Positions 1 to 11,987 of a DNA stretch of 11,987 bases are shown here, in pieces. Location of the stretch: the IMG/VR virus record IMGVR_UViG_2541047882_000002, positions 1 to 11,987 of that record; one strand, 5' to 3'. Within the stretch, counting starts at the first letter, position 1; every line of letters starts with the position of its first letter. This DNA comes from a virus. Lineage: Duplodnaviria > Heunggongvirae > Uroviricota > Caudoviricetes. The translations under genes and the position numbers were made by a program. The notes under the pieces are model-generated. The model did no database searches, was not told the origin of the DNA, and saw only the letters and a program-made list of their open reading frames with translations.

Positions 1-510
1 ATGAGCAATAAAACTATTTTCACAGGCACCGACACCAGAGCCGGCACACCAGAAAACAACCCATTCGGCTGGCGGGGAGCGATGAACAGGATTGCGAACA
101 GTGGCTACACGCCGACGTTCTGCGCCGGAATTGCACAGGAACTGGAAGAGCGTGCGCCTGTAAGGTATGTGGTCGCTATGCCCGACGAACAGGGCGGACT
201 GGAAGCGGCTTACTTCTCCACTCTCGACGGAGCTAAGCGTTTCTGCCAGAAGTTTGACTTCCCGTGCTTCTTTGAGTTAAAGCGGCGTGGTGATGCTGAG
301 GACTTCGCATGGATCGCATGTGGTGATGCGTCACCAAAGCAATTTAGCTTTAGCGAGGGGCTGTCAGAGTTCAGCCAGCGCATTCCACTAAGCCAGCTCA
401 GGACATTGCTTGAAGCAGAAGCATCGCCGCTAAAATCAGCCATGACTCAGGCAGCTGCCAGCTTTGCCAGCAACGACGAATCGACCGCAAATGACTACGG
501 TCTGGTCTGA
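1..510 (+). CDS. Hypothetical protein, 169 aa, function not recognised
   Basis: Uninterrupted ORF from ATG at 1 to TGA at 508-510; followed by a hairpin plus T-run at 555-585. Upstream region is outside the window, so the true start and RBS cannot be checked. Confidence 0.55.
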   Translation: MSNKTIFTGTDTRAGTPENNPFGWRGAMNRIANSGYTPTFCAGIAQELEERAPVRYVVAMPDEQGGLEAAYFSTLDGAKRFCQKFDFPCFFELKRRGDAEDFAWIACGDASPKQFSFSEGLSEFSQRIPLSQLRTLLEAEASPLKSAMTQAAASFASNDESTANDYGLV

Positions 511-554
511 ATAAACGCCCCGCATAAAACCGCGTAAAACGCGCTCTGATTAAC

Positions 555-585
555 GCACGGTTCAGGCCGTGCATTTTCATATCTT
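555..585 (+). terminator. Putative rho-independent terminator downstream of the 169 aa gene
   Basis: Stem GCACGG (555-560) / CCGTGC (567-572), 6 nt loop, then ATTTTCATATCTTCT. Confidence 0.4.
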
Positions 586-1140
586 CTCCCGAATCAGCTT
601 TCTGCGTGCCGTTCTGGCGCTGCGTGCACACGCCGCGTAAACGGCGTGACGTAAAACGTGAGGTGACGTAAACCGCGCTACCCCCTCCAACCCGCGGGTT
701 TCGTGTCGAAATGATTTTTCAGTTTTCTGGTGTGAAAAAATGGCGGGCAGGGTGCGCCAGTACTGGGGATTCACACAAATGCAAAATTTCATTCAGTGAA
801 ATTTTTTGCAATTTTTCTTCCCGATTTTCAGTTCTGTTTTTGTGCTGCGCGTGAGTATTTTCATGATATTTAAGGCTTTTTAATACTTTACGTGAGGCTG
901 TTTTCCCTGATGGCAGAATTTCACGCCCGGCAGCATTTCGCGAAAATCCAGACGTGACGCGCCCTGACGGCAGACAGTGAACAAAATGAAACTGAAAAAA
1001 ACTTCACAACAGGGAGAAGCAGAACGGCGGAAGGGGCGAATAAAACGCAGTGCGATGAGGTGACGTAAAATGCCAGACATGGCGACGTAAAGTAGCGTTG
1101 TGTTGCGGATTTGCGAGTGGTAAAGCGGCGTAGCGGGTGA

Positions 1141-1170
1141 TTGATGCAGGTATGGCAACCAGGCTAGAAT
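1141..1170 (+). promoter_or_regulatory. Candidate sigma70 promoter for the hok-like mRNA
   Basis: TTGATG (1141-1146), 18 bp spacer, TAGAAT (1165-1170). Would give a ~420 nt transcript ending at the 1562-1597 terminator, a typical hok mRNA length. Weak -35 match. Confidence 0.2.
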
Positions 1171-1325
1171 CGCCGCGGGTGCCTTTCGGCTGATGGTCGG
1201 AGGGAATACCCGAAGGCCGGATGTGGAAAGGCCCCGAGTCAACAATTACGTTAACCCGAGGCCCTAACACTTCTTACCTTAGCAAGTAGAAAGGTTAGCG
1301 CCTCCCCGACAAAGGAGCAAGCGCT

Positions 1326-1472
1326 ATGACGCAAATTCCGTTAAAAACCCTGCTACTGTGTTTAACCGCAGTAGCGATAATCTGGATCCTCCACACATCA
1401 CCTTGTGAGTTGCGATTCAGGTTTGCAGGAACGGAAATTGCGGCATTCTTACAATGTAAGTCTACACAGTAA
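1326..1472 (+). CDS. hok: Hok/Gef-family type I toxin, 48 aa small membrane peptide
   Basis: ATG at 1326 preceded by AAGGAG (1312-1317) at 8 nt spacing. Translation MTQIPLKTLLLCLTAVAIIWILHTSPCELRFRFAGTEIAAFLQCKSTQ: hydrophobic N-terminal helix followed by C-E-L-R-F-R...E-I-A-A-F, matching the conserved Hok/HokB C-terminal block as recalled. Below the ORF-track size cutoff. Confidence 0.7.
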   Translation: MTQIPLKTLLLCLTAVAIIWILHTSPCELRFRFAGTEIAAFLQCKSTQ

Positions 1473-1561
1473 GGAACCGCGACGGGGAAGTCAACTTCCC
1501 CGTCAATCGGTTGCCAGGGTAAAGGCCGGAACGGCACCCTATCTGCAGTCATGAACATCAC

Positions 1562-1597
1562 AAACCCGCCGTGTAAAAGCTGCGGGTTTTCTTTTGG
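1562..1597. terminator. Intrinsic terminator ending the hok-like transcript; may also serve the convergent ogr-like gene
   Basis: Stem AAACCCGC (1562-1569) / GCGGGTTT (1582-1589), 12 nt loop, then TCTTTTGG on the plus strand. Lies 10 nt beyond the ogr-like stop on the minus strand. Confidence 0.55.
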
Positions 1598-1606
1598 CTG
1601 GTATCC

Positions 1607-1861
1607 TCAGGCCTGCAGTAGTTCCAGCGCCATTTGCTTTTCCTCCGGGCGCATTCGTTCGATCAACAGCTTCAACACGCCGTTCTCCAGTCCGCTGGGG
1701 GTCAGCGTGTGCGAGTAGGTCAGATTCATTACCCAGGTATGCCCGCACTCAAGACGCTTGCAACGGTAATAAACATCTGCAAAGCGATCATCTTTCCAGA
1801 AGGTCTTCTCAATCACTGCGCGTTCGCCGCAACAAAAACACCGCGCTTTCTGTCTGCGCAC
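1607..1861 (-). CDS. ogr: Ogr/Delta-family zinc-finger late-gene transcriptional activator, 84 aa
   Basis: GTG start at 1861 with AGGAGG 6 nt upstream. Cys spacing C-X2-C-X22-C-X4-C (RCFCCGERA...YYRCKRLEC), the P2 Ogr / P4 Delta zinc-finger pattern. Confidence 0.8.
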   Translation of the reverse strand: MRRQKARCFCCGERAVIEKTFWKDDRFADVYYRCKRLECGHTWVMNLTYSHTLTPSGLENGVLKLLIERMRPEEKQMALELLQA

Positions 1862-2004
1862 TCTGACACCTCCTGAATAAACACGGTTTGCCTGACCTGA
1901 TTTTACCCGTCATCACGGGGGGGTAACAGTCATTTCATTCAGTTTTATTGTGTTGATTTTATGTTGCTGGTCGTACCAGTGATTTTAAGGCTCTCTCTCA
2001 TAAT

Positions 2005-2329
2005 CCGGTGGGGGGTGCGCAAAGCGGTTACAACGGTTACAACCCCAAAAAACGCCACATAACAATATGATTTTAATGGATATTGTTTGTAACCGCTTTG
2101 CGGTTACACTGCGGTTACAACGGTTACAGGTTTCAGAAAGTTATTTATTATCAATCAGTTAAAAACTTAACTTGTAACCGCCTGTAACCTAACAAAACGG
2201 TTACATGTAACCGCGTTGTAACCGCTTTTGTAACTCATCGGACCAGTTGTAATGTGTTGATATATAATATAAAAATAAGTGATTTTAAATTTGTAACCGT
2301 TGTAACCGCTTTGCGCACCCCCCCCCCGG
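2005..2329. repeat. Array of at least 13 GTAACC/GGTTAC hexamers bounded by near-perfect ~38 bp inverted repeats, with an AT-rich segment; candidate attP-like site or replication origin
   Basis: IR-L 2005-2044 (CCGGTGGGGGGTGCGCAAAGCGGTTACAACGGTTACAACC) is the reverse complement of IR-R 2291-2329 except in the G/C run. Further GGTTAC at 2102, 2113, 2122, 2199 and GTAACC at 2089, 2174, 2184, 2207, 2218. AT-rich stretch 2236-2292. Confidence 0.8.
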
Positions 2330-2526
2330 ACTTTAGCGCGACCCTTTAAAATGTTAATTAAACTCACTTACTCTGTATCACTCTCATTAACACTCTGTAA
2401 TTTAAATGTGCCTCGCCACTGTTTGACCCTTTCTGATAATCAGGGGAGGGAGAGCAAAAAAATTGATGACGACACCGCTGCAATATGGCCACCATTGCAT
2501 TGCTGTTACCGTTGGTTCTGGCCAAC

Positions 2527-2551
2527 AAAAAAGGCCAGTGGAAAACTGACC
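2527..2551 (-). terminator. Putative intrinsic terminator after the primase-integrase operon
   Basis: Minus-strand RNA: GGUCAGU / ACUGGCC stem (one G-U pair), 5 nt loop, then UUUUUUGUUGG; about 30 nt downstream of the integrase stop (2582-2584). Confidence 0.45.
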
Positions 2552-2581
2552 TCTTTTGCTGTGAATGTAGCGTTCTGTGGG

Positions 2582-3586
2582 TTACTCTGCTGGCTCTTTT
2601 TCTTCGGTGATCACTATGTTGGCTACCGGGTTAAATCTCATAGCATCTGCCAGATAATCCGGTGCAAAATGTGCGTATGCCATAGTCTGCTGAATTGTCG
2701 CATGCCCAAGGATTTTTTGTAGCGCAAGAATGTTGCCACCGTTCATCACAAAGTGACTGGCGAATGTATGCCGCAATACATGCGCAGCCTGCCCCCTCGG
2801 TAAATCGGGTTTTATTTTTTTTAATGCCCGGCAAAACTCTCTGTACTTCACATCAAACAGTCGCCCGGTTTCTTTTGTTTTTACGGCAGCACATATTTCC
2901 TGCGACACAGGCACCGTTCTTTTTCTACCGTTTTTGGTTTCCAGAAACGTTATTCTATTATGAACTATTTGCTCTCCATACAATCTGCTGGCCTCACTCC
3001 AGCGGGCTCCGGTACAAAGACACAAGAGCGCAACCCTTCGTTGATCTCCATTCAGTCTGTCAAGCAACAATGTGACCTCGTTTTTTGATAAAAAGGCCAT
3101 CTCCCGCTGCTTTACGTAAAGAACAGGAATACCGCGAACAGGATGTTCTGCATCCCACAAACCGATCTTTTTCAGGGCTGTAAACATCCCTGATAATCTG
3201 TTCATATATCTGTTTGCTGAGGACGGCTTTAGCCCTTCCGCAATTTTCTGTGATCGCCATGCAATGATTTTTAATTTGTCGAGCTCTACCGCAAACATGT
3301 CAGCCCCAAGCTCATTAATAATTTTGCCAAGCTGCTGTTTATCCGTATTTGCCTTCCGCCTGTGCTGGCCGTGATAGACCCACCACAATTCCAGTAAATC
3401 GCTAAGCGTTCTCCGGTCGCGATAGCCCTGTATAAACTCGCGCTTTTCGGCGTTCGCTATGATGTACCGTTCAGTTGCTGCAGCTATCGATTTTTTGTCA
3501 AATATTCTTCTGATGCGCTTCCCTTTACGTCCGCATGGCCTGATATCGAGCAGCCACCGCCCATCATGCATCTTTCTGATCGGCAT
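2582..3586 (-). CDS. int: Tyrosine recombinase, P2/186-type phage integrase family, ~334 aa
   Basis: Start refined to ATG at 3586 (MPIRKMHDGRWLLDIRP...) with AAGGAGGGG 8 nt upstream. Contains HVLRHTFAS and LGHATIQQTMAYAHF (catalytic Tyr) and LCLCTGARWSEA. Block-wise resemblance to P2 Int as recalled (DIRPxGRxGKRIRRxFDKK, IKPSSxNR, KAIKPDLPxGQA). Track ORF begins 12 codons earlier at 3622. Confidence 0.85.
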   Translation of the reverse strand: MPIRKMHDGRWLLDIRPCGRKGKRIRRIFDKKSIAAATERYIIANAEKREFIQGYRDRRTLSDLLELWWVYHGQHRRKANTDKQQLGKIINELGADMFAVELDKLKIIAWRSQKIAEGLKPSSANRYMNRLSGMFTALKKIGLWDAEHPVRGIPVLYVKQREMAFLSKNEVTLLLDRLNGDQRRVALLCLCTGARWSEASRLYGEQIVHNRITFLETKNGRKRTVPVSQEICAAVKTKETGRLFDVKYREFCRALKKIKPDLPRGQAAHVLRHTFASHFVMNGGNILALQKILGHATIQQTMAYAHFAPDYLADAMRFNPVANIVITEEKEPAE

Positions 3587-3588
3587 GT

Positions 3589-6258
3589 TTAACGCCCCTC
3601 CTTGTAACTGAATATCCGGCATTTCAGTACTTCCGGCTCTCTGGCCTCGGCGACCCCTCTTCCGGCGTTTGCCTGTCTGGAGACCTCACTACGAATGGTT
3701 TTGCGGCCTGTCAAAGGTCGGGAACGTCCGGCTCCGAGCAACTCAATCATTTCGCGGTCAGTTCGGATCTCCACGCGGTGAATGGCGGCTGCCTGTGCCA
3801 GTTGCGGAATACTGATAGCAATCCCTTCGCGGCATCCCTTGCCGTAGTGGTTTACGCCGTATTTTGTTATGCCGTCCAGGAAGTCGAACGCCTCCCAGAA
3901 CTCCATCATTTCCGGCAAGTCAGCCGCCGCCGCTTTAACCTGTGCTGTTGCCATTTGTTCCAGTTCCAGACATGTGGCATCAAGCCATTCAGCCGGGATA
4001 TCAATAACGCATTTAAGCGCCCTGACCAGCGCGATAAGTTGCGCGTGATTTTTGGCGATACGGGGATGGCGAATATTTTCGCATCCGCAAAGGCGTTCCG
4101 TTTCAGCTGGCGACACTTCCAGGAACGTTTGCATAATCGCCCGTTCCTGACTTACCGCCCGGTGAATAAACCCCGATACCTTCTCTACGGGGTAGAGTTC
4201 CAGCCGTCTCGCCGCCAGTCGGGTATCTGGTGAATGGCGTTTTTTATCGGTGTATATGCGTATCAGGCGCTCAATAATTGCTGGCGAGGCGTTTACCCGC
4301 GCATTCTGCGCAATTACGATAGCGCCCTTAAAATCCGGGTCATAAGTGTTGTTATTGTTGGCCTTAACACCTCGAACGCCGATACCACCGCCGTTATAGA
4401 GGCTTTTCAGGTTATCGAAGTCAAACGCACCTCTTTTTTGCGCATTGTCTCCCCGGTCTGCTTCAATCAGAACAACAGGTAATCCGGCGACCTGTCCAAA
4501 GGTGCGCTTCCAGCCCGCTTCTGATCCTTTGGTTGGATCAACGCCTTCGTAGTTGTCACGACCGCACAGCCGCCAGCAAAAATCAATCAATGTTGATTTG
4601 CCCGTTCCGGGCTCTCCGGTGACTTCAAGGAAAGGGAAGGATTCTTCTTTATCCCGGATTTGTTCACTGAACAGTGACCCAAGCCAGAAAGCCAGGGTAA
4701 TAACTCCTTTTTCACCAAAAGCCAGCCAGAGATCTTCCACCCATGACGCTGTAAATTCATCCGGTTTTTTGTAGTTAATCTGTAATGTGGGTTTTTCGCT
4801 TAATGGTTTTGCGGTTATGCCATCAATTTCAAAATAATCTTCGTCATTGATTTCATAAGTTTTACCCTTGTAAACAGCAATATCATTAAACAACCACGCC
4901 CCAATGGCCTTGTTGTATCCGATAAAATCCTGACCAATAACCTCTTTTATTGCGGGAAGGTCATTTTTTATTAATGCGTCAAGCTGCGTAGTCGTTCCGG
5001 TATAAATGCCGCCTTTTGCTACGTGCAACAGACGTTTTTTAAATTCAGATGAGGATGTTAATTGTCCTGATGTAAAGGTGTTTTTTACCGTAGTGCCATC
5101 CGGGAACGTAACACGGAAGTAATACCATGCTTCATCCGTGTCATTGTTTCGAATGTAATAAAGCGGCACCGGGTTACAGTTTGCGATTTCTTTTACTGCA
5201 CCGGATTCCTTAAGTGCAATTTTTCGCGCTTCATCTTCGTCAACATTTCGCTCATTAATGACACGCTCAACAGCCTTCATATGGCGCTCAATATCCAGCT
5301 TGAACCAGAAAATACGGTTATCAAAGGGAAAATGAAACTCCTTTCGCTCACGAAAGGAAAACATTATTAGTGCCTTATCTCTCGGAGATTTCGCCAGCAA
5401 TAAATCACCGTAATAACGGTATCTTTTCACATCATGGCCACGCAGCTTTCCGGCGATGTGTAAATCATTCCAGTCGCGTTTATTGTTGTTTTTACCTGGC
5501 AACGCCGCTGCCGTTCTCCAGCCGTCTTCGGCGCTGCGTTCTGCATGTTTTTTCGCGTAACGCTCACCTGCACGCCCGTTATCCAGCGCCCACACGATAA
5601 CCGGACGGGGATTATCCCCGCACAGCTTCGCCAGTTCTTCCAGCGCCTTATCAGGGTAGTTCACGGCAGACATGACAGAAACGGCCGCAATGCCATTCTG
5701 GTTAAGGCTGATGGCATCAAAGATACCCTCACAAATCCAGATTTCTTTGGCCTTGCTTAAATCCGCTCCCGGATAAGCCCACCACAGCCCCTTGTAGCTG
5801 CCGGAAAAATTCGCCTTCCGTTCGAAGCGTTCCGGTCGGTCTATGATGCGCTCCCACCACACGCCGTCAGCCAGCGTAAAACGCACAGTAGCAGCCTGTT
5901 CGCCGCTTTCCTTGTCCTGGTATCGCTCCTGAGTAAATGCCCCTTTCAGTGGCTCCACAGCAATATTGCGCGCCTCCTGAAGATAAGCTGCCGCCGCTGC
6001 GTATGGATCGTCTTTCGTGCTGATATAGCGATCTGACCATGACGAAAACACATCCGGGTAAAGTTCTTTGGTCAACAGGTCTGCACCGCATTTATTTTCG
6101 CGGCCACAGTGTACGATGTACGGCCTCTCAAGACTGGTAAACAGTTCCTTCTTTCCACATTGCGGACAAACACCATAGCGAAGATAGTTATTTTCTTCTT
6201 TAAAGTTGTAATCACGAATAAGACGGTTAATAATCTCTTTTCTGGTGTTATGTTTCAT
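3589..6258 (-). CDS. Primase-helicase replication protein (P4 alpha-like), ~889 aa
   Basis: N-terminal Cys cluster (CPQCG...HCGRENKC), TOPRIM-like WICEGIFDAISL, central Walker A GEPGTGKST. Track ORF starts at GTG 6276; ATG at 6258 (MKHNTRKEII) is the more likely start. Stop lies 2 nt before the integrase ATG. Confidence 0.85.
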   Translation of the reverse strand: MKHNTRKEIINRLIRDYNFKEENNYLRYGVCPQCGKKELFTSLERPYIVHCGRENKCGADLLTKELYPDVFSSWSDRYISTKDDPYAAAAAYLQEARNIAVEPLKGAFTQERYQDKESGEQAATVRFTLADGVWWERIIDRPERFERKANFSGSYKGLWWAYPGADLSKAKEIWICEGIFDAISLNQNGIAAVSVMSAVNYPDKALEELAKLCGDNPRPVIVWALDNGRAGERYAKKHAERSAEDGWRTAAALPGKNNNKRDWNDLHIAGKLRGHDVKRYRYYGDLLLAKSPRDKALIMFSFRERKEFHFPFDNRIFWFKLDIERHMKAVERVINERNVDEDEARKIALKESGAVKEIANCNPVPLYYIRNNDTDEAWYYFRVTFPDGTTVKNTFTSGQLTSSSEFKKRLLHVAKGGIYTGTTTQLDALIKNDLPAIKEVIGQDFIGYNKAIGAWLFNDIAVYKGKTYEINDEDYFEIDGITAKPLSEKPTLQINYKKPDEFTASWVEDLWLAFGEKGVITLAFWLGSLFSEQIRDKEESFPFLEVTGEPGTGKSTLIDFCWRLCGRDNYEGVDPTKGSEAGWKRTFGQVAGLPVVLIEADRGDNAQKRGAFDFDNLKSLYNGGGIGVRGVKANNNNTYDPDFKGAIVIAQNARVNASPAIIERLIRIYTDKKRHSPDTRLAARRLELYPVEKVSGFIHRAVSQERAIMQTFLEVSPAETERLCGCENIRHPRIAKNHAQLIALVRALKCVIDIPAEWLDATCLELEQMATAQVKAAAADLPEMMEFWEAFDFLDGITKYGVNHYGKGCREGIAISIPQLAQAAAIHRVEIRTDREMIELLGAGRSRPLTGRKTIRSEVSRQANAGRGVAEAREPEVLKCRIFSYKEGR

Positions 6259-6301
6259 ATATAAATCCCCCCCCACTGCACCTTTTGCAGTGGGGTTTTT
6301 A

Positions 6302-6607
6302 TTAATTACTCGTTACTTCTTGTTTCTGGGCAATCCCTGCGGCTTCAGCTTTGTGCCATGAAAAAATCCCGCCAGAAAGATGCATTCCTGATTTAATCGC
6401 TCGTAATTCCCGATAAAGAATGTTAGTTAATGATTCCATTTCATCGCTTTGTACAGCAATTCGCTCTTTGGTATTGATTTCACCTGTCAATGCTGAAAAA
6501 AGAGCAATAACATTTATTACATCCTCAAGACCGCCAATGGAATCTTCTGTGAAAAAGCCAGCGTATTCTTTTTTGTATATATTGCGGACATTCTGATTTT
6601 CAGACAT
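6302..6607 (-). CDS. Hypothetical small protein, 101 aa
   Basis: ATG at 6607 with GGGGAG about 6 nt upstream; last gene before the primase in a co-oriented cassette. No recognisable motif. Confidence 0.6.
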   Translation of the reverse strand: MSENQNVRNIYKKEYAGFFTEDSIGGLEDVINVIALFSALTGEINTKERIAVQSDEMESLTNILYRELRAIKSGMHLSGGIFSWHKAEAAGIAQKQEVTSN

Positions 6608-6674
6608 AAAAACTCCCCGACCCGTTAAGGCCGAAATATAAATTGAATTCAGTTATCAGTGGATAATTCGGGAA

Positions 6675-6893
6675 TCAGGCGGAAAGCTGTGTCACCTTCA
6701 ACGCCTTGAAATGCGTCATTCCCAGCGCTTCCAGCCCTTCGGCTGCGCGGCGTATGGCTTCGCCCGGCCCCGTTCCGTATACCGTTGCATGTGCATGTTT
6801 GGTTAACCCACGTTTATTAACGGCATAACCCAGCACAAAAAAACGTTTTTCACCACTGCCATTATTTTTACGGGATATTGAACGGCTTTTCAT
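6675..6893 (-). CDS. Hypothetical small protein, 72 aa
   Basis: ATG at 6893 overlaps the TGA stop of the upstream ORF (ATGA overlap), indicating translational coupling. Confidence 0.5.
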   Translation of the reverse strand: MKSRSISRKNNGSGEKRFFVLGYAVNKRGLTKHAHATVYGTGPGEAIRRAAEGLEALGMTHFKALKVTQLSA

Positions 6894-7078
6894 TTCTTCA
6901 CCTTTACCACTGATACTGTGAGTTCTTCTTCTGGCAATTGATATTCCGGCGCAATTTCTTCCGTATACCTGATAGCGTCCCTTGCCGCTTTTCCTTTTGA
7001 TTTATATTTACGTATCGTGTGGAAGTTTTCTTCTTCTCCCGTAATCACATTACGCAATTTAATATGAATCTCGTACAT
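6890..7078 (-). CDS. Hypothetical small protein, 62 aa (MYEIHIKLRNV...)
   Basis: Internal ATG at 7078 of track ORF 6890-7174, with GGAGG 7 nt upstream; abuts the stop of the preceding ORF. Confidence 0.55.
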   Translation of the reverse strand: MYEIHIKLRNVITGEEENFHTIRKYKSKGKAARDAIRYTEEIAPEYQLPEEELTVSVVKVKK

Positions 7079-7080
7079 CG

Positions 7081-7269
7081 TTACCCCTCCATCTCCATAA
7101 TGTTTACCGTGCATTTGTGGGTTAATTTCCCCTGTTTGTTGGCGCGGGTGTACTCCATGCGACGGGCAGCACACAAGGCATCGTCACAGGTCGGGTATTC
7201 CTCAGCATGAACAAACTGGCGAACGTCGCCGTTCTGGCAGTTAATCAGGGTGATAAGGAGCTTAAACAT
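7081..7269 (-). CDS. Hypothetical small protein, 62 aa (MFKLLITLINCQNGDV...)
   Basis: Internal ATG at 7269 of track ORF 7081-7347, with GGGAGG about 7 nt upstream; overlaps the upstream ORF stop by 8 nt. Same length and weak position-wise similarity to the 6890-7078 product. Confidence 0.55.
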   Translation of the reverse strand: MFKLLITLINCQNGDVRQFVHAEEYPTCDDALCAARRMEYTRANKQGKLTHKCTVNIMEMEG

Positions 7270-7435
7270 GGCACGCCTCCCGGACACGAATACGGGCAAC
7301 AAAGACCAGACGGGATGCCGGAAGCAGGGCGCGCGCTTCGCGCTCACTGGCAGCGGTAACGGTATGAAGGCGGATATTTTTACCGTGGCACTGCATAAAG
7401 CGCCAGATAAAATCAGGGCGTGTTGATATAGCCAT
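7262..7435 (-). CDS. Hypothetical small protein, 57 aa (MAISTRPDFIWRF...); may be the C-terminal part of a longer product
   Basis: ATG at 7435 with AAAGGAG at 8 nt spacing. The same frame stays open upstream to 7789 (175 codons), but none of the five upstream in-frame ATGs has a convincing RBS. Confidence 0.4.
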   Translation of the reverse strand: MAISTRPDFIWRFMQCHGKNIRLHTVTAASEREARALLPASRLVFVARIRVREACHV

Positions 7436-7830
7436 TTTGGCGGCTCCTTTGGTTAATTTACGGAGTCTCGCCAGCACGCTGCTAAACATGGTGGCGGGAC
7501 GTAACAGGGTTAGCAGACTGGCACCAAAGAAACCAGCAGGCCTTACGGCCTCCCCATTACGCCCCGCCATAATACGGGAAAGGGTGGTATTACGGGCACA
7601 AAAAAACCGCATTACGGAAATATAGCGGCTACCCGCTTTGGTATTCAGGCTGCTAAACCCGGCACCCGTTTTGTGAGGTGCGGGCAAACGATACGCCATG
7701 ACAAAAAAGCGAGTCAAGCAATATTGCAAATTATTTTTGCGCGATTGCGCTGAGTGATTGATTTCTGTACGTAAAAAGATCATAATCATTCCCGAACTGT
7801 AGATTCATAGCGTTTTCTTTTGCTGATAAG
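7436..7830 (-). promoter_or_regulatory. Leader/regulatory region of the small-gene and primase operon, carrying repeated (C)ATTACGG(A) motifs
   Basis: Motif copies at 7457 (TTTACGGA), 7556 (CATTACGCC), 7589 (ATTACGG), 7610 (CATTACGGA); the same 9-mer recurs at 7869 and 10155. Promoter elements not confidently placed. Confidence 0.3.
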
Positions 7831-7864
7831 CGGCCCGATTTTCCTGCGGGCCGTTTTTCTTATC
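7825..7864. terminator. Strong hairpin between the cargo operon and the small-gene operon; orientation of action ambiguous
   Basis: CGGCCCG (7831-7837) / CGGGCCG (7847-7853) with outer GATAAG / CTTATC. T-run (TTTTTCTT) follows on the plus strand; the minus-strand 3' side is not U-rich. Confidence 0.4.
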
Positions 7865-7870
7865 CAGTCA

Positions 7871-8923
7871 TTACGGATTAAACGTAATCACCCCTTCATC
7901 CACCGCCGCATAAAGATTAACATCCGCCAGTCCATAGCCCTGATGACGCCATGCTCGCATGTTCAGGCGTTTGGTGTTTTCGTTCATGTCGAACTCTGTG
8001 CGGTAAGACCCTTCAATGATGTTAATCAGCAGGTTCGGGAGTGTGGTCACAGCCAGACGTTTACCCGGCATAAACGGCGGCACAAAGGCAAAATGCCCGG
8101 CAATGGTGCTTCCCCATGCGCTGGCGGCTTCGGTATCTCCTGCGCCGTTTGCGGTGCTGAAAAGACGCAGACGTTCGGCAGCTGCAAGTTCTGATCCCAC
8201 CATCACCACAAGGCGTGGATCGTTCTGCCACTGTGCGGGAATTTTCGTTTTAATCAGGTGCTGTGCCAGTGCATCCACCCCCGGAAAATCACCACCTGCG
8301 CCCAGCGTGATGGCCTCGCTGATAATCTGTCGCCCTTCGCTGGCCTTCCTGGCAATTTCATGCCAGCCGGGCGCAACATCCTCGCCGTTCGGGCTGGTGT
8401 CCGGTGTGGTGAAGGTTGCCGCTGACTTGCCGTTAAAGCCAATCCGCAGATCATCCAAGTAAATTTTGCTGGTCAGATAGCCACACAAAATCCCCAGCAG
8501 TGCATCGCGGTTTTTATCGTCATTCGCCACATTGGCCATCACAACCAGGTTAATCCAGTCGAGATATTCGCATGAGTCCATCTCATAGCATTCAATCGGA
8601 GAGCCTTTAATATCCATGGCTCGGCTAAAGCGTCCTTCCTCTGCGCGTCCGGTGGATAAGCGCGCATCACCAATCAGATTAATGGCGGACTGATGCGGAT
8701 TAACTGACAGGTATTTTATTTGCCCGGAGAGCCAGTTAGAGGGTGAAATAAAATGCACAAACGGATTTTTTTGTGTGTATGCGCTGATGCGTGCGTAAAG
8801 CTCTTTTTCTGCAAGCGCGCTATTAATGTCAGTTTCATTTTCGTTCACCGCCGGAGATGAAATATTAATATTTTCAAGCACGCTTCCGGCTTTATCTTTC
8901 AGGTCATTAATATTAAAAAACAT
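7871..8923 (-). CDS. Hypothetical protein, ~350 aa, second gene of the cargo operon; no recognisable domain
   Basis: ATG at 8923 (MFFNINDLKDK...) preceded by AAGGGGAAA; the upstream gene's TAA stop is 10 nt before it. Track ORF starts at 8995 but that would overlap the upstream gene by 62 nt. No Walker A or obvious catalytic signature. Confidence 0.7.
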   Translation of the reverse strand: MFFNINDLKDKAGSVLENINISSPAVNENETDINSALAEKELYARISAYTQKNPFVHFISPSNWLSGQIKYLSVNPHQSAINLIGDARLSTGRAEEGRFSRAMDIKGSPIECYEMDSCEYLDWINLVVMANVANDDKNRDALLGILCGYLTSKIYLDDLRIGFNGKSAATFTTPDTSPNGEDVAPGWHEIARKASEGRQIISEAITLGAGGDFPGVDALAQHLIKTKIPAQWQNDPRLVVMVGSELAAAERLRLFSTANGAGDTEAASAWGSTIAGHFAFVPPFMPGKRLAVTTLPNLLINIIEGSYRTEFDMNENTKRLNMRAWRHQGYGLADVNLYAAVDEGVITFNP

Positions 8924-8933
8924 ACATTTCCCC

Positions 8934-9809
8934 TTAAACAATATCTTTCTTTTCGGTATGTGCAGACAGCAAAGCAGTCGCTGCATCCCGTTCAATTCGT
9001 GGCATACTTATTCCGGTGTATTCCTGTAGCGTCATCGCATGGCGGATGGTTTCACTGCCGTTGCTGTAATAATGCTTCGTCAGAGTACGTAGTGCATCAT
9101 TAATATATTCCTGCCGTAAATGGTTGTATTTAGTCATTACTGAATAAGGAATGTGCTTAATTTCTTCATTACGCAAAGTGACAATAGCACTGACTGCCGA
9201 AATAATCCCCTTATAAAGACTGATGCGGCGCTCTATTTCCCGCTCCAGTCCGTCAAACGAAGCGGCAAAAATCCACGCATTATCGCTATCATGAGAAAGA
9301 TTTTTCCCTGTACCAATAAGGCGTATAGCTTGTTCACAGGCAGCGCGCGTCTTTTCGCAATTCCGTTTCTCATTTTCAAGCAGACGCATTTCATGCTCGA
9401 TAACGTCTTTTACTGAATACCGATCACCATAAGGGTTATCAGCACCCGTGGGCTGTAACGGAGCGTTACGCAATTCGCTGATTTTATTTTCCTGAGCAGT
9501 CACTTTATTTTCTGCTTCGCGGATTTTTTGCCGGATGCGTGTAATGGCAATATCGCAACCTTCCGCAATATCCCGCATCTCTTCATCACTGATTTTATGC
9601 ACTAACGGCAGGCAATACCCTGTAATATCGCAATATTCCTCGGCGTGTCTGTGCATGTATTTTGATGCAATGATATCAATCAGACGAATAACCAAAGAGA
9701 CTTCAGATTGTCCCTTTTGATATACAAAACTACGGGGCCACGATGCAATCGTGGTCATTTCCGGGCAGTTTTTAAAAACCGGAGTAATGTTTTTGATTAA
9801 GGTATTCAT
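8934..9809 (-). CDS. Hypothetical protein, 291 aa, first gene of the cargo operon; no recognisable domain
   Basis: ORF from ATG 9809 with only a weak purine-rich RBS. Charged, probably coiled-coil-rich central region (ENKVTAQENKISELRN..., EHEMRLLENEKRNCEKTRAACEQ). AT-rich: three 60-nt samples gave 47, 32 and 48 percent GC. Confidence 0.7.
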   Translation of the reverse strand: MNTLIKNITPVFKNCPEMTTIASWPRSFVYQKGQSEVSLVIRLIDIIASKYMHRHAEEYCDITGYCLPLVHKISDEEMRDIAEGCDIAITRIRQKIREAENKVTAQENKISELRNAPLQPTGADNPYGDRYSVKDVIEHEMRLLENEKRNCEKTRAACEQAIRLIGTGKNLSHDSDNAWIFAASFDGLEREIERRISLYKGIISAVSAIVTLRNEEIKHIPYSVMTKYNHLRQEYINDALRTLTKHYYSNGSETIRHAMTLQEYTGISMPRIERDAATALLSAHTEKKDIV

Positions 9810-9835
9810 TTTCTATTCTGTGAAGTTCTTAATAT

Positions 9836-9862
9836 CTGAAATATTCAGGCGCGTAGCGCGCC
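9836..9862 (-). terminator. Possible terminator/attenuator between alpA and the cargo operon
   Basis: Perfect palindrome GGCGCGTAGCGCGCC (9848-9862) plus CTGAA/TTCAG hairpin (9836-9848); minus-strand RNA continues UGAAUAUUUCAGAUAUU. Only ~26 nt remain before the gene A start, too little for an independent promoter. Confidence 0.35.
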
Positions 9863-9883
9863 ATGCTGGCTTAATGAAAATAA

Positions 9884-10105
9884 TTAAGCCTGAAAACGTT
9901 GTTGTTTTCTTTCTTCTAACCAATCAATAATTTCCTGCTCTACCCATGCAATTGAGCGAGGGCCAATTCTGATTGGTTTTGGAAAGGCTTCTGATCTTAT
10001 ATCTGCGTAAATTCGCGTTCTTGATTTTCCCGTCATTTCAATAACTTTAGGAAATCGTATTAGCTTTTGTGTCGGCCTGCTGCTGGAATGTGCATGTATT
10101 GACAT
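9884..10105 (-). CDS. alpA: AlpA-family (prophage CP4-57 type) HTH transcriptional regulator, 73 aa
   Basis: ATG at 10105 with AGGAGGG 5 nt upstream. Core LIRFPKVIEMTGKSRTRIYADIRSEAFPKPIRIGPRSIAWVEQEIIDWL matches the AlpA/Vis-type helix-turn-helix as recalled. Confidence 0.85.
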   Translation of the reverse strand: MSIHAHSSSRPTQKLIRFPKVIEMTGKSRTRIYADIRSEAFPKPIRIGPRSIAWVEQEIIDWLEERKQQRFQA

Positions 10106-10634
10106 CTCACCCTCCTGTCTACTCTGATGAGTTTTTTGTGTTAACTATGCAACCCATTACGGAACCTTTTGGTACTTCCTGGTTGCTTACGGCACATCGA
10201 AAATCATAAACAACGAAAAACGGATTTGTAAATCAGGCGGATTTTTAACAGGGGTTGACATAGGCGGTGAGATTTGTTCCATGCGTGATATATCCATCTG
10301 GAACCACTTTAAACCATCTGGAAGCGACAAATAACAACAAGTCAGTGCCAGAAAGGTTTGCTGGCTTACCCCTTAGGCACTAGGAAAGTCCTTTCTGGAC
10401 GGTGTAATGGCTTGCGAACGCTGAAATAGTGGGCTCTGAAAACAAAAAAAATAGTTGGAAGCGTGACACGCGTCAAAAAAATATATCGGTAAAACTGTTT
10501 GATTTTCTAATTTTTATCAAAAGCACTGGTTGTTAATTGAAAATATATTAAAAATCAAATGGATATAGCTGTTTTTGAGGCTAAAAATCACTAGGTGCTT
10601 TTAGTGGTGTCTTATTCTATTGATTTTCAAAGGC
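10106..10634. promoter_or_regulatory. alpA upstream regulatory region: CATTACGGA box, CCATCTGGAA direct repeats, inverted repeats and an AT-rich tract
   Basis: CATTACGGA at 10155-10163 and CTTACGG at 10186; CCATCTGGAA at 10294-10303 and 10314-10323; CCAGAAAGG (10349) / CCTTTCTGG (10390) inverted repeat; AT-rich 10440-10620. No ORF with a credible start. Confidence 0.4.
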
Positions 10635-10668
10635 AAAAAAATCGGCGTGTCCACATATTGTCCACGCC
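10635..10668 (-). terminator. Putative intrinsic terminator downstream of the P4-type integrase
   Basis: Minus-strand RNA: stem GGCGUG / CACGCC (10663-10668 / 10644-10649), 13 nt loop, then GAUUUUUUU (plus-strand A-run 10635-10641). The loop holds a GTCCAC(A) direct repeat. Confidence 0.45.
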
Positions 10669-10724
10669 TTGAGTTTAATTCAGTTTCTTGGGTTAGTTTG
10701 GTTTGTCGAGTTAGCGCCGTTAGT

Positions 10725-11987
10725 TCAGTCTGTTTCGTTGATCCACTTAAAATCATAGGGCGCGACATATGCCGTCTGGCAGGAGTCGAGATAATCAGCC
10801 CACCACTGCAACATCTGGCGACGCTCCTGCATGTGTTCAGCCCTGTGAATGTAAGCAGCACGAACGGTGTTTCTTTCCCTGTGGCTCATCTGGAGCTCGA
10901 CAGCTTCCCTTGTCCATATGCCTGATTCTGTCAGAGCGGAGCAGGCCATAGCCCTGAATCCATGACCGCAAATGTCTTCTTTTGTATCGTATCCTATGTG
11001 GCGTAACGCCTTGTTAATGGTGTTTTCGCTCATGGGCTTTATCTGGTAGTGGTCGCCGGGAAAAATCAACAATTCATCACCTGATATATTCCTTATATCT
11101 TCAAGAAGCTGCATTGCCTGAGTGGATAAAGGGATGGCGTGAGGGGTTCCCATTTTCGTTCCACGATATGAATATTTAACGCCTTCTATTTTTTCGCGCT
11201 CTGCGGGTATTACCCACATTGATTTATCAAAATCAATTTCATTCCATCGGGCAAAACGCAATTCACTTGAGCGAATAAAGACTAATAAATTTAACTTTAG
11301 CGCAAATTGCGTTAATAGCCGCCCGTTCATCTTGTGATGATAATTATCAATTTTTCCCAGCAATTCAGGCAATCGCTCAAGAGGGAGGGCAGGGCGATGA
11401 CGGGTTTTATTGGTTTCTATCGCACCGCCCAACTCCTGCGCTGGGTTGTATTTAATCATTCCGTTCTGGACAGCGTAACGCATGATTGCATTCATTCGCT
11501 GCTTGTTTCGTGATGCCGTCTCAAGTATCCCTTTATCCTCCATTTTGCGTAGAGGTAACAACAGATCCATGGTTGTAATTTCGTTAATTGGCCTTTTGCC
11601 AAGAATGGGGAAGACATGATTCTCCAGGTCTTTTAAAACTTTTTGTGCGTGTAGTTCGCTCCAGCCCTTTTTCCTGCGATGCCATTCTCTGGCGACATCT
11701 TCAAAAAGCACTATTTGGGGTTTTTGTGTGTACAGGGGATCAATGCCTTTAGCCAGACTTGCCAGATATTCATCGCGGGCGTTCCTGGCTTCTGCAAGCG
11801 TGACGGCCGGGTAAATACCCAAAGCGCGAGTTGTTTCTTTGCCGTTGATAACTTTGCGAAAGCGCCAGTATTTTGAGCCATTGGGGTGAACGTAGAGATA
11901 CAGGCCTTTACCGTCACGAAGTTTTTTAATTTTGTTGCTGTCTTTGTCTGGTCTGGCGTTACGCACAGCTAAATCAGTTAGTTTCAT
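10725..11987 (-). CDS. int: P4-type (CP4-57 IntA-like) tyrosine integrase, 420 aa
   Basis: N-terminus MKLTDLAVRNARPDKDSNKIKKLRDGKGLYLYVHPNGSKYWRFR is the typical P4-family arm-binding start; C-terminal HGFRAMACSALTE and LQMSHRERNTVRAAYIHRAEHMQERRQMLQ (catalytic Tyr). Start codon is at the window's last bases. Confidence 0.9.
   Translation of the reverse strand: MKLTDLAVRNARPDKDSNKIKKLRDGKGLYLYVHPNGSKYWRFRKVINGKETTRALGIYPAVTLAEARNARDEYLASLAKGIDPLYTQKPQIVLFEDVAREWHRRKKGWSELHAQKVLKDLENHVFPILGKRPINEITTMDLLLPLRKMEDKGILETASRNKQRMNAIMRYAVQNGMIKYNPAQELGGAIETNKTRHRPALPLERLPELLGKIDNYHHKMNGRLLTQFALKLNLLVFIRSSELRFARWNEIDFDKSMWVIPAEREKIEGVKYSYRGTKMGTPHAIPLSTQAMQLLEDIRNISGDELLIFPGDHYQIKPMSENTINKALRHIGYDTKEDICGHGFRAMACSALTESGIWTREAVELQMSHRERNTVRAAYIHRAEHMQERRQMLQWWADYLDSCQTAYVAPYDFKWINETD

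What the first reader, a model, noticed from the sequence alone, without database searches (positions are those of the whole stretch)
1141..1597. Unannotated hok/sok-like type I toxin-antitoxin locus
A 48-codon ORF with a strong SD encodes a peptide with a hydrophobic helix and a Hok-family C-terminal block, followed by a canonical terminator ~90 nt downstream, as in hok mRNAs. The 5' leader (GGGTGCC near 1168) is complementary to a 3' segment (GGCACCC near 1523), consistent with fold-back inhibition. No mok-like overlapping ORF was found in any frame, and the antisense Sok-like RNA could not be placed.
Basis: partly seen in the sequence, partly recalled or inferred. Interest (0 to 1): 0.5.

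Follow-up and report, generated by a model that had tools for sequence, protein, structure and literature searches.

The report
Hok/Sok-type toxin-antitoxin locus, no mok
This is an intact member of the well-known hok/sok family of small membrane-toxin / antisense-RNA addiction modules, carried on a phage-satellite-like island of E. coli; it is ordinary and already labelled "Hok/Gef family protein" in public databases, except that it and its close relatives lack the usual mok leader reading frame.

Summary
Window 1141-1597 contains a complete hok-type module:
- a sigma-70-like promoter (1141-1170)
- a structured mRNA of about 420 nt (1177-1596)
- a 48-codon ORF (1326-1472) with an AAGGAG Shine-Dalgarno
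- an intrinsic terminator (1562-1595)

The peptide passes Pfam HOK_GEF (35.4 bits against a cut-off of 22). The identical protein is in NCBI as "Hok/Gef family protein" on 148 contigs.

The 5' GGGUGCC (really 1177-1183) and 3' GGCACCC (really 1533-1539) form part of a 15-bp end-pairing of -27.7 kcal/mol. None of 2000 shuffles reached it, and it is kept in all 25 relatives. It corresponds to tac/fbi of plasmid R1.

By homology to an R1-like locus I placed the missing Sok RNA on the minus strand, from about 1287/1283 to about 1222. Its promoter is TTGCTC-17-TAACCT.

The R1 mok AUG aligns to CCCUAAC, and relatives carry 1-nt indels in that stretch.

Folding suggests a direct relay: tac/ucb, then GAGGCCCUAAC/dcb, which overlaps the anti-SD, then the hok SD is freed. 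Sok would block this relay. That part is inferred only.

The mok-less regulation is a modest open point.

The parts
1141..1170 (+). hok promoter: -35 TTGATG (1141-1146), 18-nt spacer, -10 TAGAAT (1165-1170)
   Evidence: Consensus scan, 9/12 matches. The -10 T-A-.-A-.-T is invariant in 25 relatives. The predicted +1 at G1177 lies 7 nt downstream and coincides with the start of DNA homology.
1177..1596 (+). full-length hok mRNA (about 420 nt, predicted)
   Evidence: MFE -169.8 kcal/mol, z = -7.8 against shuffles. The homology block to more than 1700 E. coli genomes spans about 1174 to 1595.
1177..1191 (+). tac element (5' end GGGUGCCUUUCGGCU)
   Evidence: Pairs with 1524-1539 in the full-length fold and with 1223-1235 in the truncated fold. 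Column entropy is 0.0 across 25 relatives.
1223..1235 (+). ucb-like box (GUGGAAAGGCCCC), the alternative partner of tac
   Evidence: RNAalifold consensus helix. 99.7% of cells are paired in 25 sequences. It is the second-best duplex site for tac, -21.8 kcal/mol.
1222..1287 (-). predicted Sok antisense RNA (about 60-66 nt; start at about A1287 or G1283, 3' end at about 1222)
   Evidence: Collinear with Sok of an R1-like locus. Folds into a 5' tail, a 17-bp hairpin and a short U-containing tail: -35.5 kcal/mol, z = -6.4. The ends are inferred, not measured.
1292..1320 (-). predicted Sok promoter: -35 TTGCTC (complement of 1315-1320), 17-nt spacer, -10 TAACCT (complement of 1292-1297)
   Evidence: Same position and spacing as TTGCGC-17-TATCCT in the R1-like locus. 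AGGTTA is invariant and TTG is kept in all 25 relatives. It is weak (7/12) and was not picked up by the consensus scan.
1258..1268 (+). GAGGCCCUAAC: homologue of the R1 mok SD region, without a start codon; proposed activator strand
   Evidence: Aligns with R1 CGAGGCAUCCC-AUG. Pairs with 1293-1304 in the truncated fold. 100% of cells are paired in 25 sequences. Entropy 0.11.
1278..1285 (+). predicted Sok-target loop CUUAGCAA with a YUNR (U-turn) motif
   Evidence: Loop of the hairpin in the truncated fold. It is complementary to the predicted Sok 5' tail. It lies in one of the more variable leader segments (entropy 0.66, against 0.0-0.11 for the paired boxes), as expected for a specificity determinant.
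1292..1305 (+). dcb-like box that overlaps the anti-SD (AGGUUAGCGCCUCC)
   Evidence: Pairs with the SD and AUG region (1314-1326) in the full-length form and with 1258-1270 in the truncated form. Entropy 0.07.
1312..1317 (+). hok Shine-Dalgarno AAGGAG
   Evidence: Read directly from the sequence. GGAG 1314-1317 is paired to CCUC 1302-1305 in the full-length fold.
1326..1472 (+). hok CDS, 48 aa
   Evidence: ORF list. Pfam HOK_GEF 35.4 bits. Entropy by codon position 0.54/0.28/0.80. The exact protein is in NCBI as Hok/Gef family protein.
1475..1512 (+). post-stop stable hairpin, the likely 3' end protector of the processed mRNA
   Evidence: MFE folds. Covarying pairs in the RNAalifold consensus, for example columns 332/341 with GC:18 and AU:7. 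Its position matches the GGCGGGC...GCCCGCC hairpin of the R1-like locus.
1524..1539 (+). fbi element (…GGCCGGAACGGCACCC)
   Evidence: Pairs with tac: 15 bp, -27.7 kcal/mol, reached by 0 of 2000 shuffles. 97.6% of cells are paired in 25 relatives, with five pairs varying on one side only through G-C/G-U or U-A/U-G changes.
1562..1595 (+). intrinsic terminator (stem 1562-1589, U-run to 1595)
   Evidence: Terminator scan and MFE folds. Conserved in most relatives.

Best explanation
This is an intact hok/sok-type type I toxin-antitoxin module carried as cargo on a phage-satellite-like island of Escherichia coli.

Shown by sequence and tools:
- A promoter at 1141-1170 would drive a roughly 420-nt mRNA (1177-1596).
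- That mRNA encodes a 48-aa Hok/Gef-family membrane peptide (1326-1472).
- The extreme 5' end (tac, 1177-1191) can pair with a 3' UTR box (fbi, 1524-1539).
- In that full-length fold the hok SD and AUG are paired with an anti-SD (1296-1305).

Inferred from homology with plasmid R1:
- The full-length mRNA is a stable, untranslatable store that Sok cannot bind.
- Slow 3' trimming back to the post-stop hairpin (about 1510) removes fbi, so tac switches to the ucb-like box (1223-1235).
- A short, unstable antisense RNA, Sok (minus strand, about 1287 to 1222, promoter TTGCTC-17-TAACCT), pairs with the leader and triggers decay. The toxin is therefore made only when Sok is no longer replenished, that is, after loss of the element or after transcription shut-off.

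Inferred here, and less certain:
- This subfamily has no mok reading frame, so translation is probably controlled directly rather than by coupling.
- Freeing GAGGCCCUAAC (1258-1268) lets it pair with the dcb-like box, which overlaps the anti-SD. This would release the hok SD.
- Sok, by covering 1258-1268, would return the anti-SD to the SD.
For: Toxin:
- Pfam HOK_GEF 35.4 bits against a cut-off of 22; PHROG 251 56 bits.
- 35% identity to R1 Hok, E 4e-9 in the pairwise comparison.
- It keeps M1, the C-x-T motif, C-E and E of the published Hok logo (bioRxiv 10.1101/2025.08.07.668861).
- The codon-position variation pattern is that of a coding sequence.
- The identical protein is named Hok/Gef in NCBI.

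Module:
- DNA homology to more than 1700 E. coli genomes starts at the predicted +1 and ends at the terminator.
- The same module lies in different neighbourhoods: P2-like prophage ends next to ogr, Stx phages and IncI plasmids.

RNA switch:
- tac/fbi is in the MFE structure, is significant against shuffles, and is kept in 25/25 relatives.
- tac/ucb is found by RNAalifold.
- tac, ucb, GAGGCCCUAAC and dcb are more conserved (entropy 0-0.11) than the CDS (0.54).
- Rfam RF01794 gives a sub-threshold hit on the leader.

Sok:
- The promoter hexamers, spacing, hairpin and tail are collinear with the R1-like locus.

Relay:
- In the window, SD partners switch from the anti-SD (full-length) to free (truncated) and back to the anti-SD when 1222-1285 is blocked.
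- Across relatives, tac goes to ucb and the activator/dcb pairing appears in 21/25 truncated forms. SD-to-AUG accessibility rises in those 21 except L023 (0.32 to 0.31) and returns to about the full-length level with Sok.

The canonical mechanism is taken from PMC9841398 and PMC4147584.
Against: - There are no expression, toxicity or RNA-end data.
- The Sok promoter is weak by consensus (7/12) and was not reported by the scan.
- The Rfam sok hit is below the gathering score, 33.6 against 59.
- There is almost no two-sided covariation in the switch helices, because the elements are nearly invariant. The structure counts therefore show conservation, not proof of pairing, and the structure was derived from one of the counted sequences.
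- The predicted gain in SD accessibility is modest (0.28 to 0.50 in the window). In 13 of 25 relatives the SD stays mostly paired (3-4 of 4 pairs) in the truncated MFE.
- The same folding procedure did not reproduce the published tac/ucb refolding for an R1-like control.
- mok, a defining part of the canonical mechanism, is absent. Sok-mediated repression therefore has to work differently from R1, or mainly through RNA decay.
Confidence: 0.88

Rival explanations
1. The locus is a canonical, mok-dependent hok/sok system whose leader ORF is simply hard to see. One candidate is the 22-codon ORF that starts at the invariant AUG 1221-1223 and ends at UAG 1287-1289. Another is an ORF with a non-standard start. 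Its translation, blocked by Sok, would open the hok SD hairpin.
For: - The AUG at 1221-1223 is invariant in 25 relatives and lies inside the predicted Sok target.
- In about 11 of 25 relatives an upstream AUG (-103 or -130) is in frame with an ORF that overlaps hok.
- In the largest such group (the L024 type, -103 AUG) and in 13 of 25 relatives overall, the SD stays mostly paired in the predicted truncated form.
- In R1, mok translation is mandatory (PMC9841398).
Against: - Start position and reading frame are not conserved.
- Two relatives read AUG-UAG at that site.
- 1-nt indels occur between close relatives in the would-be coding stretch.
- In the window the ORF stops 37 nt before the hok AUG and before the SD, whereas in R1 translation up to the hok SD is required.
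- No canonical or near-cognate start follows the retained GAGG.
- The AUG's invariance is explained by its pairing with tac.
Confidence: 0.1
2. The locus is an inactive relic, like several chromosomal hok loci of E. coli K-12. The peptide or its expression would no longer be functional, and the loss of mok would be part of the decay.
For: - mok is absent.
- The match to the curated NCBIfam Hok models is far below their cut-offs: 30.4 against 73 and 28.5 against 89.
- The conserved Leu before the Cys-Glu motif is Pro in this allele (logo).
Against: - The promoter, SD, ORF, tac, fbi, ucb, dcb and terminator are all intact, and no IS element interrupts them.
- The regulatory boxes are nearly invariant across 25 diverged relatives, and the CDS shows a codon-position pattern typical of purifying selection.
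- The module is present in about 1750 of 5426 complete E. coli genomes.
- In a survey, 42 of 45 diverse Hok homologues tested were toxic (bioRxiv 10.1101/2025.08.07.668861).
- Pro-Cys-Glu also occurs in other subfamily members.
Confidence: 0.06
3. The region is really a protein-coding gene on the other strand (ORFs 880-1245, 1004-1270 or 1295-1561, 88-121 aa), and the hok-like ORF is incidental.
For: Three minus-strand ORFs of 88-121 aa overlap the region.
Against: - They are not annotated in any related genome.
- The conservation pattern follows RNA elements and the plus-strand hok frame.
- Relatives carry indels that break those frames.
- The plus-strand ORF has a significant family match.
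Confidence: 0.01

Closest known systems
hok/sok (parB) of plasmid R1 and IncF plasmids (compared here with the R1-like locus of pMTY1886_IncFII, L031)
   Same: - Toxin of the same Pfam family, 35% identical.
- Same order of parts: promoter, tac, structured leader, ucb, GAGG box, dcb overlapping the Sok -10, SD, hok, post-stop hairpin, fbi, terminator.
- tac/fbi end-pairing is predicted in both.
- The Sok promoter hexamers are at the same place with the same 17-nt spacer, and Sok has the same tail-hairpin-tail shape.
   Different: - No mok: the R1 mok AUG aligns to CCCUAAC.
- The tac/fbi sequence differs: GGGUGCC/GGCACCC here, GGCGCUU/AAGCGCC in R1.
- The leader is about 20 nt shorter, and the toxin is 48 aa instead of 52.
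- The dcb-like box overlaps the hok anti-SD, so refolding alone may open the hok SD. In the R1-like control the hok start stays paired in both forms.
- The carrier is a prophage or satellite rather than a conjugative plasmid.
Hok/Gef loci next to ogr at the ends of P2-like (Peduoviridae) prophages such as phage P88 and phage Chuche, and their copies in Stx phages and IncI plasmids
   Same: - Same subfamily at the DNA level, 73-86% identity over the whole mRNA module.
- tac, ucb, dcb and the fbi core are the same, and mok is likewise absent.
- The CDS is annotated Hok/Gef family protein or 'MokW-like host killing'.
   Different: - Those toxins are 45-47 aa, of the MSQKSL… or MTQIPL…LCNK type. 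The window allele is 48 aa and ends in QCKSTQ.
- In those loci the module follows ogr in the same orientation at the prophage end. Here it is convergent with a delta/ogr-like gene inside a satellite-like island.
hokW-sokW of Sakai prophage 5 (PMC8621323)
   Same: It is a prophage-borne hok/sok locus shown experimentally to be a type I TA system dependent on RNase III and Hfq. This shows that phage-borne hok loci can be functional.
   Different: It belongs to a different Hok subfamily. The published primers encode MKQQKAM…DYESEK, 51 aa. It is therefore not the direct relative that the PHROG label 'MokW-like' suggests.
Chromosomal hokA-E / gef loci of E. coli K-12
   Same: They belong to the same protein family and to the same general hok mRNA design (my own knowledge of the Gerdes laboratory work; not tested here).
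   Different: - The window peptide scores far below the curated HokA and PRK09738 cut-offs.
- From memory, several K-12 loci are reported to be inactivated by IS elements or rearrangements, whereas this locus is intact.

Membership tests
Hok/Gef toxin family (Pfam PF01848) | Profile match above the curated gathering score | tested here: met
   35.4 bits against a cut-off of 22, E 8.3e-9, residues 9-44 on profile positions 7-42 of 42. PHROG 251 gives 56.3 bits.
Hok/Gef toxin family (Pfam PF01848) | Peptide of about 45-55 aa with one N-terminal hydrophobic helix and a polar C-terminal part | tested here: met
   48 aa. Residues 8-22, TLLLCLTAVAIIWIL, are hydrophobic, followed by HTSPCELRFRFAGTEIAAFLQCKSTQ (read directly from the sequence).
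Hok/Gef toxin family (Pfam PF01848) | Conserved residues of the Hok logo (M1, C16, T18, L30, C31, E32, E41) | tested here: met
   C12-L-T14, C27-E28 and E37 correspond to C16/T18, C31/E32 and E41. L30 is Pro here, and is Leu or Pro in relatives (logo from bioRxiv 10.1101/2025.08.07.668861).
Hok/Gef toxin family (Pfam PF01848) | Membership of the curated NCBIfam HokA equivalog or the PRK09738 subfamily | tested here: not met
   28.5 bits against 89, and 30.4 bits against 73. The peptide belongs to the broad family, not to these curated subgroups.
Hok/Gef toxin family (Pfam PF01848) | Toxicity and membrane depolarisation on expression | not testable with these tools
   This needs induced expression. 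In a survey, 42 of 45 diverse homologues tested were toxic.
hok/sok-type type I TA locus (plasmid R1 paradigm) | Long-range pairing of the mRNA 5' end (tac) with a 3' box (fbi) | tested here: met
   15 bp, -27.7 kcal/mol, reached by 0 of 2000 shuffles. Present in the MFE structure. 97.6% of cells paired, and tac pairs with fbi in 25/25 relatives.
hok/sok-type type I TA locus (plasmid R1 paradigm) | Alternative local partner for tac (ucb) and a dcb box, allowing refolding after 3' trimming | tested here: met
   tac/ucb appears in the RNAalifold consensus and in the truncated MFE. 99.7% and 100% of cells are paired. The switch is seen in 21/25 relatives. This is thermodynamic prediction only.
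hok/sok-type type I TA locus (plasmid R1 paradigm) | mok leader reading frame that overlaps hok and is translationally coupled to it | tested here: not met
   The window has no ORF with a canonical or near-cognate start overlapping the hok start. The subfamily has no conserved start or frame, and 1-nt indels occur in the stretch. The R1 mok AUG aligns to CCCUAAC.
hok/sok-type type I TA locus (plasmid R1 paradigm) | Short cis-antisense RNA (Sok) complementary to the leader, with a 5' tail and a stem-loop | tested here: met
   The minus strand 1287-1219 folds into tail, 17-bp hairpin and tail, z = -6.4. It is collinear with R1-like Sok. A YUNR motif sits in the predicted target loop 1278-1285.
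hok/sok-type type I TA locus (plasmid R1 paradigm) | Active constitutive Sok promoter | tested here: inconclusive
   TTGCTC-17-TAACCT lies at the position homologous to R1 TTGCGC-17-TATCCT and is conserved. It matches only 7 of 12 consensus positions and was missed by the scan. There are no expression data.
hok/sok-type type I TA locus (plasmid R1 paradigm) | Match to the Rfam sok model RF01794 at gathering score | tested here: not met
   33.6 bits against a gathering score of 59, E 8.7e-6, over 1177-1331 on the plus strand, full model length. This is sub-threshold similarity only.
hok/sok-type type I TA locus (plasmid R1 paradigm) | 3' processing of the mRNA, RNase III cleavage of the duplex, and post-segregational killing | not testable with these tools
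   This needs Northern blots or RACE, an rnc mutant, and stability assays.

The most novel reading that the evidence does not exclude
The P2-prophage/satellite-borne Hok subfamily, present in about a third of complete E. coli genomes, may run the hok/sok switch without any mok leader peptide. After 3' trimming, a three-step strand exchange would open the hok ribosome-binding site directly: tac captures ucb, the freed GAGGCCCUAAC captures the dcb/anti-SD box, and the SD is released. Sok would repress by sequestering the activator strand, and by triggering decay, rather than by blocking translation of a leader ORF. This would be a mechanistic variant of the textbook hok/sok model.
Probability: 0.35. 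Interest if true: 0.45.

Novelty: already known. Interest (0 to 1): 0.2.

Why it matters
Practically, the result confirms that a reader working from raw sequence correctly recognised a type I toxin-antitoxin module. It adds the missing parts: the Sok RNA, its promoter, and the ucb and dcb boxes.

Biologically, the locus is one more copy of a very common addiction or abortive-infection cassette on a mobile element. Its likely role is to stabilise the island or to take part in phage-phage and phage-satellite conflict. The defence role of hok/sok is itself disputed (PMC13047441).

One point goes beyond the ordinary. This large phage-borne subfamily has no mok frame, although mok translation is considered obligatory in the R1 paradigm. 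If the direct SD-relay model is right, it would show how the same RNA switch can be rewired without translational coupling. It would also matter for automatic prediction of hok/Sok regulatory parts, which recent surveys explicitly left open (bioRxiv 10.1101/2025.08.07.668861).

Tried and rejected
- A scan of genome contigs with the 48-aa peptide confirmed no loci. 600 pattern hits were found, but none passed tblastn. I used E. coli, phage and plasmid BLAST hits and IMG/VR loci instead.
- I first assumed that hokW-sokW of Sp5 was the closest characterised relative, because phage records label the gene 'MokW-like'. I rejected this: the published primers encode a different Hok, MKQQKAM…DYESEK.
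- RNAalifold on the 25-sequence alignment did not return the long-range tac/fbi helix. It chose the mutually exclusive tac/ucb helix. I therefore tested tac/fbi with named-structure counts and a duplex-shuffle test.
- Covariation tests were uninformative, because the switch elements are nearly invariant: 0-1 pairs with two-sided change.
- The control fold of an R1-like locus reproduced tac/fbi but not the published truncated-form structure. MFE-based support for the relay is therefore weak evidence.
- A search for a P2/P4 cos core in the window gave nothing. The motif was recalled from memory and allowed up to 3 mismatches.
- A phage DNA search with the upstream gap 500-1180 gave nothing.
- No solved structure matches the peptide.
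- I examined a leader-ORF (mok-equivalent) hypothesis from the invariant AUG 1221 and rejected it as a family feature.
Full report
**1. What is there**

The plus strand of 1141-1597 holds a compact transcription unit.
- A sigma-70-like promoter, TTGATG-18-TAGAAT, lies at 1141-1170. It is the only hit in 1050-1700; 0.3 hits are expected by chance. It places a start at about G1177.
- An ATG ORF of 48 codons runs from 1326 to 1472. AAGGAG (1312-1317) precedes it at an 8-nt spacing.
- A stable hairpin follows the stop codon (1475-1512).
- An intrinsic terminator (stem 1562-1589, U-run to 1595) lies about 90 nt downstream.
GGGTGCC is at 1177-1183 and GGCACCC at 1533-1539.

**2. Is it more than chance?**

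- The RNA 1177-1597 folds to -169.8 kcal/mol, z = -7.8 against dinucleotide shuffles.
- In that fold the first 15 nt pair with 1524-1539. As an isolated duplex this is -27.7 kcal/mol. The mean for 2000 shuffled 3' UTRs is -15.9, the best is -26.0, and none reaches the observed value.
- The second-best site for the 5' end anywhere in the mRNA is 1223-1235, at -21.8 kcal/mol.

**3. Identity of the peptide**

- The ORF product passes Pfam HOK_GEF: 35.4 bits, cut-off 22, E 8.3e-9.
- It matches PHROG 251 at 56 bits.
- It is 35% identical to R1 Hok over 40 residues.
- It keeps the C-x-T, C-E and E positions that a recent survey found conserved in more than 80% of 1264 Hok peptides. The conserved Leu is Pro here.
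- It scores far below the curated NCBIfam HokA and PRK09738 cut-offs. It therefore belongs to the broad family but not to those subgroups.
- The identical 48-aa sequence is already in NCBI as "Hok/Gef family protein" on 148 contigs.
- PGAP annotates the CDS in the 95-97% identical E. coli islands.
- The gene is therefore not new, although its RNA partners are not annotated.

**4. A discrete, mobile module**

- BLAST against 5426 complete E. coli genomes finds the region in about 1750 of them. The homology begins at window 1174-1175 and ends at about 1595, which are the predicted mRNA limits.
- The same module lies in unrelated neighbourhoods:
  - directly after ogr at the ends of P2-like prophages (P88, Chuche, and prophages next to serS, ihfA or tRNA-Leu);
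  - in Stx phages;
  - on IncI plasmids.
- In the window it is convergent with an Ogr/Delta-like zinc-finger gene (1607-1861, minus strand).
- The surrounding island carries an integrase, a toprim primase, a C4-type antisense RNA, isrK, a P2-family capsid-like gene and a second integrase.
- In strain STEC313 the island sits beside hpt/can. This is a phage-satellite-like element.

**5. RNA anatomy by comparison**

I aligned the window with 24 distinct relatives of 73-97% identity.
- The regulatory boxes are more conserved than the coding sequence. Column entropy is 0.00 for 1177-1191, 0.05 for 1223-1235, 0.11 for 1258-1268 and 0.07 for 1292-1305. It is 0.54 for the CDS.
- The CDS shows the codon-position pattern of a translated gene: 0.54/0.28/0.80.
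- The tac/fbi helix is paired in 97.6% of cells. Five of its pairs vary on one side only, through G-C/G-U or U-A/U-G changes.
- The slid controls give 34-50% paired.
- RNAalifold independently returns the mutually exclusive local helix 1177-1190 with 1223-1235, and the helix 1258-1270 with 1293-1304. These are 99.7% and 100% paired.
- Two-sided covariation is almost absent, because these boxes hardly vary. The counts therefore show conservation of pairing potential, not proof. The tested structures came from one of the sequences.

**6. Comparison with the R1 paradigm**

I fetched an IncFII locus whose Hok is identical to the R1 Hok sequence I recalled from memory.
- The order of parts is the same: promoter, tac (GGCGCUU in R1), leader, ucb, CGAGGC box, dcb overlapping the Sok -10, SD, hok, post-stop hairpin, fbi (AAGCGCC in R1), terminator.
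- The Rfam sok/hok-leader model matches 1177-1331 over its full length, but below the gathering score: 33.6 against 59 bits, E 8.7e-6.
- The canonical mechanism is described in PMC9841398 and PMC4147584:
  - an inert full-length mRNA locked by tac/fbi;
  - slow 3' trimming;
  - refolding to tac/ucb;
  - Sok binding and RNase III decay;
  - hok translation coupled to mok.

**7. Placing Sok**

- In the R1-like locus the Sok promoter is TTGCGC-17-TATCCT on the minus strand. Its -10 lies inside dcb and its -35 abuts the hok SD.
- The window has TTGCTC (complement of 1315-1320), a 17-nt spacer, and TAACCT (complement of 1292-1297) at the homologous place.
- AGGTTA is invariant and the TTG is kept in all relatives.
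- A start at about 1283-1287 and an end near 1222 give a 60-66-nt RNA. It folds into a 5' tail, a 17-bp hairpin and a short tail: -35.5 kcal/mol, z = -6.4. This is the shape of R1 Sok.
- Its 5' tail is complementary to the loop CUUAGCAA (1278-1285) of the truncated-form hairpin, which contains a YUNR motif. YUNR is the known U-turn recognition feature, from my own knowledge of Franch et al. 1999.
- That loop lies in one of the more variable leader segments (entropy 0.66). This fits a role in keeping different hok/Sok pairs from cross-talking.
- The promoter is weak by consensus (7/12) and the scan missed it. Expression remains to be shown.

**8. The missing mok**

- In the window, the two frames other than hok's are open only from -71 to +4 and from -43 to +83 relative to the hok A. 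Neither contains ATG, GTG, TTG, CTG, ATT, ATC or ATA upstream of hok.
- The R1 mok AUG aligns to CCCUAAC. The GAGG that serves as the mok SD in R1 is retained, but no start codon follows it.
- Relatives differ by 1-nt indels in this stretch.
- Upstream AUGs fall in frame with an ORF that overlaps hok in only about 11 of 25 sequences, at two different positions.
- Two relatives read AUG-UAG at the invariant AUG.
- The stretch is therefore non-coding in this subfamily.
- The recent Hok survey did not attempt to predict Mok. I found no paper describing a mok-less hok subfamily, but the search covers open-access literature only.

**9. How it most likely works without mok (inference)**

Folding the window RNA in three states gives a coherent switch.
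- Full length: tac pairs with fbi, and the anti-SD 1296-1305 pairs with the SD and AUG region (1314-1326).
- Truncated at 1510: tac pairs with ucb, GAGGCCCUAAC (1258-1268) pairs with 1293-1304, the GGAG is no longer held by the anti-SD, and the AUG is open (P unpaired 0.79).
- Truncated with 1222-1285 blocked, mimicking bound Sok: the anti-SD returns to the SD.

Across the 25 sequences:
- The full-length state is the same in 25/25.
- tac goes to ucb and the activator/dcb pairing appears in 21/25 truncated forms.
- SD-to-AUG accessibility rises in those 21 except L023 (0.32 to 0.31). With Sok it returns to about the full-length level in all.

Caveats:
- The accessibility gain is modest.
- In 13/25 the SD remains mostly paired (3-4 of 4 pairs) in the truncated MFE.
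- The same procedure did not reproduce the published truncated structure for the R1-like control, where the hok start stays paired in both states.
- I therefore rate the direct-relay reading at about 0.35. Sok-triggered decay and a cryptic leader ORF remain open as alternatives.

**10. Biological role**

- For R1, hok/sok stabilises the plasmid by post-segregational killing.
- A prophage hok/sok of another subfamily (hokW-sokW) is a functional type I TA system that aids phage release (PMC8621323).
- The reported T4 exclusion by R1 hok/sok was not reproduced recently (PMC13047441).
- For this locus the most economical reading is stabilisation of the island, or a part in conflicts between mobile elements. 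This was not tested.

**11. Verdict**

- The peptide is a member of the Hok/Gef family.
- The locus works like R1 hok/sok in its tac/fbi lock and its antisense RNA. It fails one defining feature of the canonical regulatory scheme, mok. It should therefore be described as a hok/sok-type locus of a mok-less subfamily, not as a canonical R1-type system.
- The gene is already catalogued, so novelty and interest are low.
- The mok-less control is a modest lead that can be tested.

Noticed in passing
window 7487-7574 (-) and 7600-7681 (-): These are Rfam matches above gathering score to the C4 antisense RNA (79.9 bits) and to the isrK Hfq-binding RNA (53.2 bits), lying side by side. This is the P1/P7/P4-type immunity RNA arrangement, inside the island.
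   Followed up: no
window 1607-11987: The island looks like a phage satellite. It carries an Ogr/Delta-like zinc-finger gene (1607-1861, -), an integrase (2582-3622, -), a large toprim primase (3589-6276, -), a repressor-like ORF (7262-7789, -), a P2-family major-capsid-like gene (7871-8995, -) and a second, P4-type integrase (10725-11987, -). In STEC313 it lies next to hpt/can, and homology stops at about 9788, so the second integrase may belong to a neighbouring element.
   Followed up: partly
window 1-1140: The ORF at 1-510 (169 aa) has no Pfam or PHROG match. The 630 nt between it and the hok promoter have no called gene in related genomes and no DNA match in the phage collection. No P2/P4 cos core was found.
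   Followed up: partly
L023 (E. coli STEC316) 467-897, against window 1165-1602: This is a mosaic allele in the same island. The promoter, most of the 5' leader, the 3' UTR and the terminator are like the window's. The Sok-target segment and the Hok coding part are of the P2-prophage type (MSQKSL…, 47 aa). This suggests recombination inside the hok module.
   Followed up: no
phage records H16-H35; PMC8621323: The PHROG label 'MokW-like host killing' is attached to Hok toxin genes, not to Mok. The experimentally studied hokW of Sp5 encodes a different Hok subfamily (MKQQKAM…DYESEK). The label should not be read as homology to the characterised hokW-sokW pair.
   Followed up: yes
window 1562-1609: The hok terminator lies 12 nt from the stop codon (1607-1609) of the convergent delta-like gene. 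It has an A-run on its 5' side, so it may terminate both transcripts.
   Followed up: no
L024, L014, L010, L011, L006, L005, L012 (P2-like prophages, IMG/VR): In this group a 79-codon ORF starts at the invariant leader AUG (-103) and overlaps hok to +134. The SD stays paired in the predicted truncated form. This could be a lineage-specific mok-like frame or chance.
   Followed up: partly
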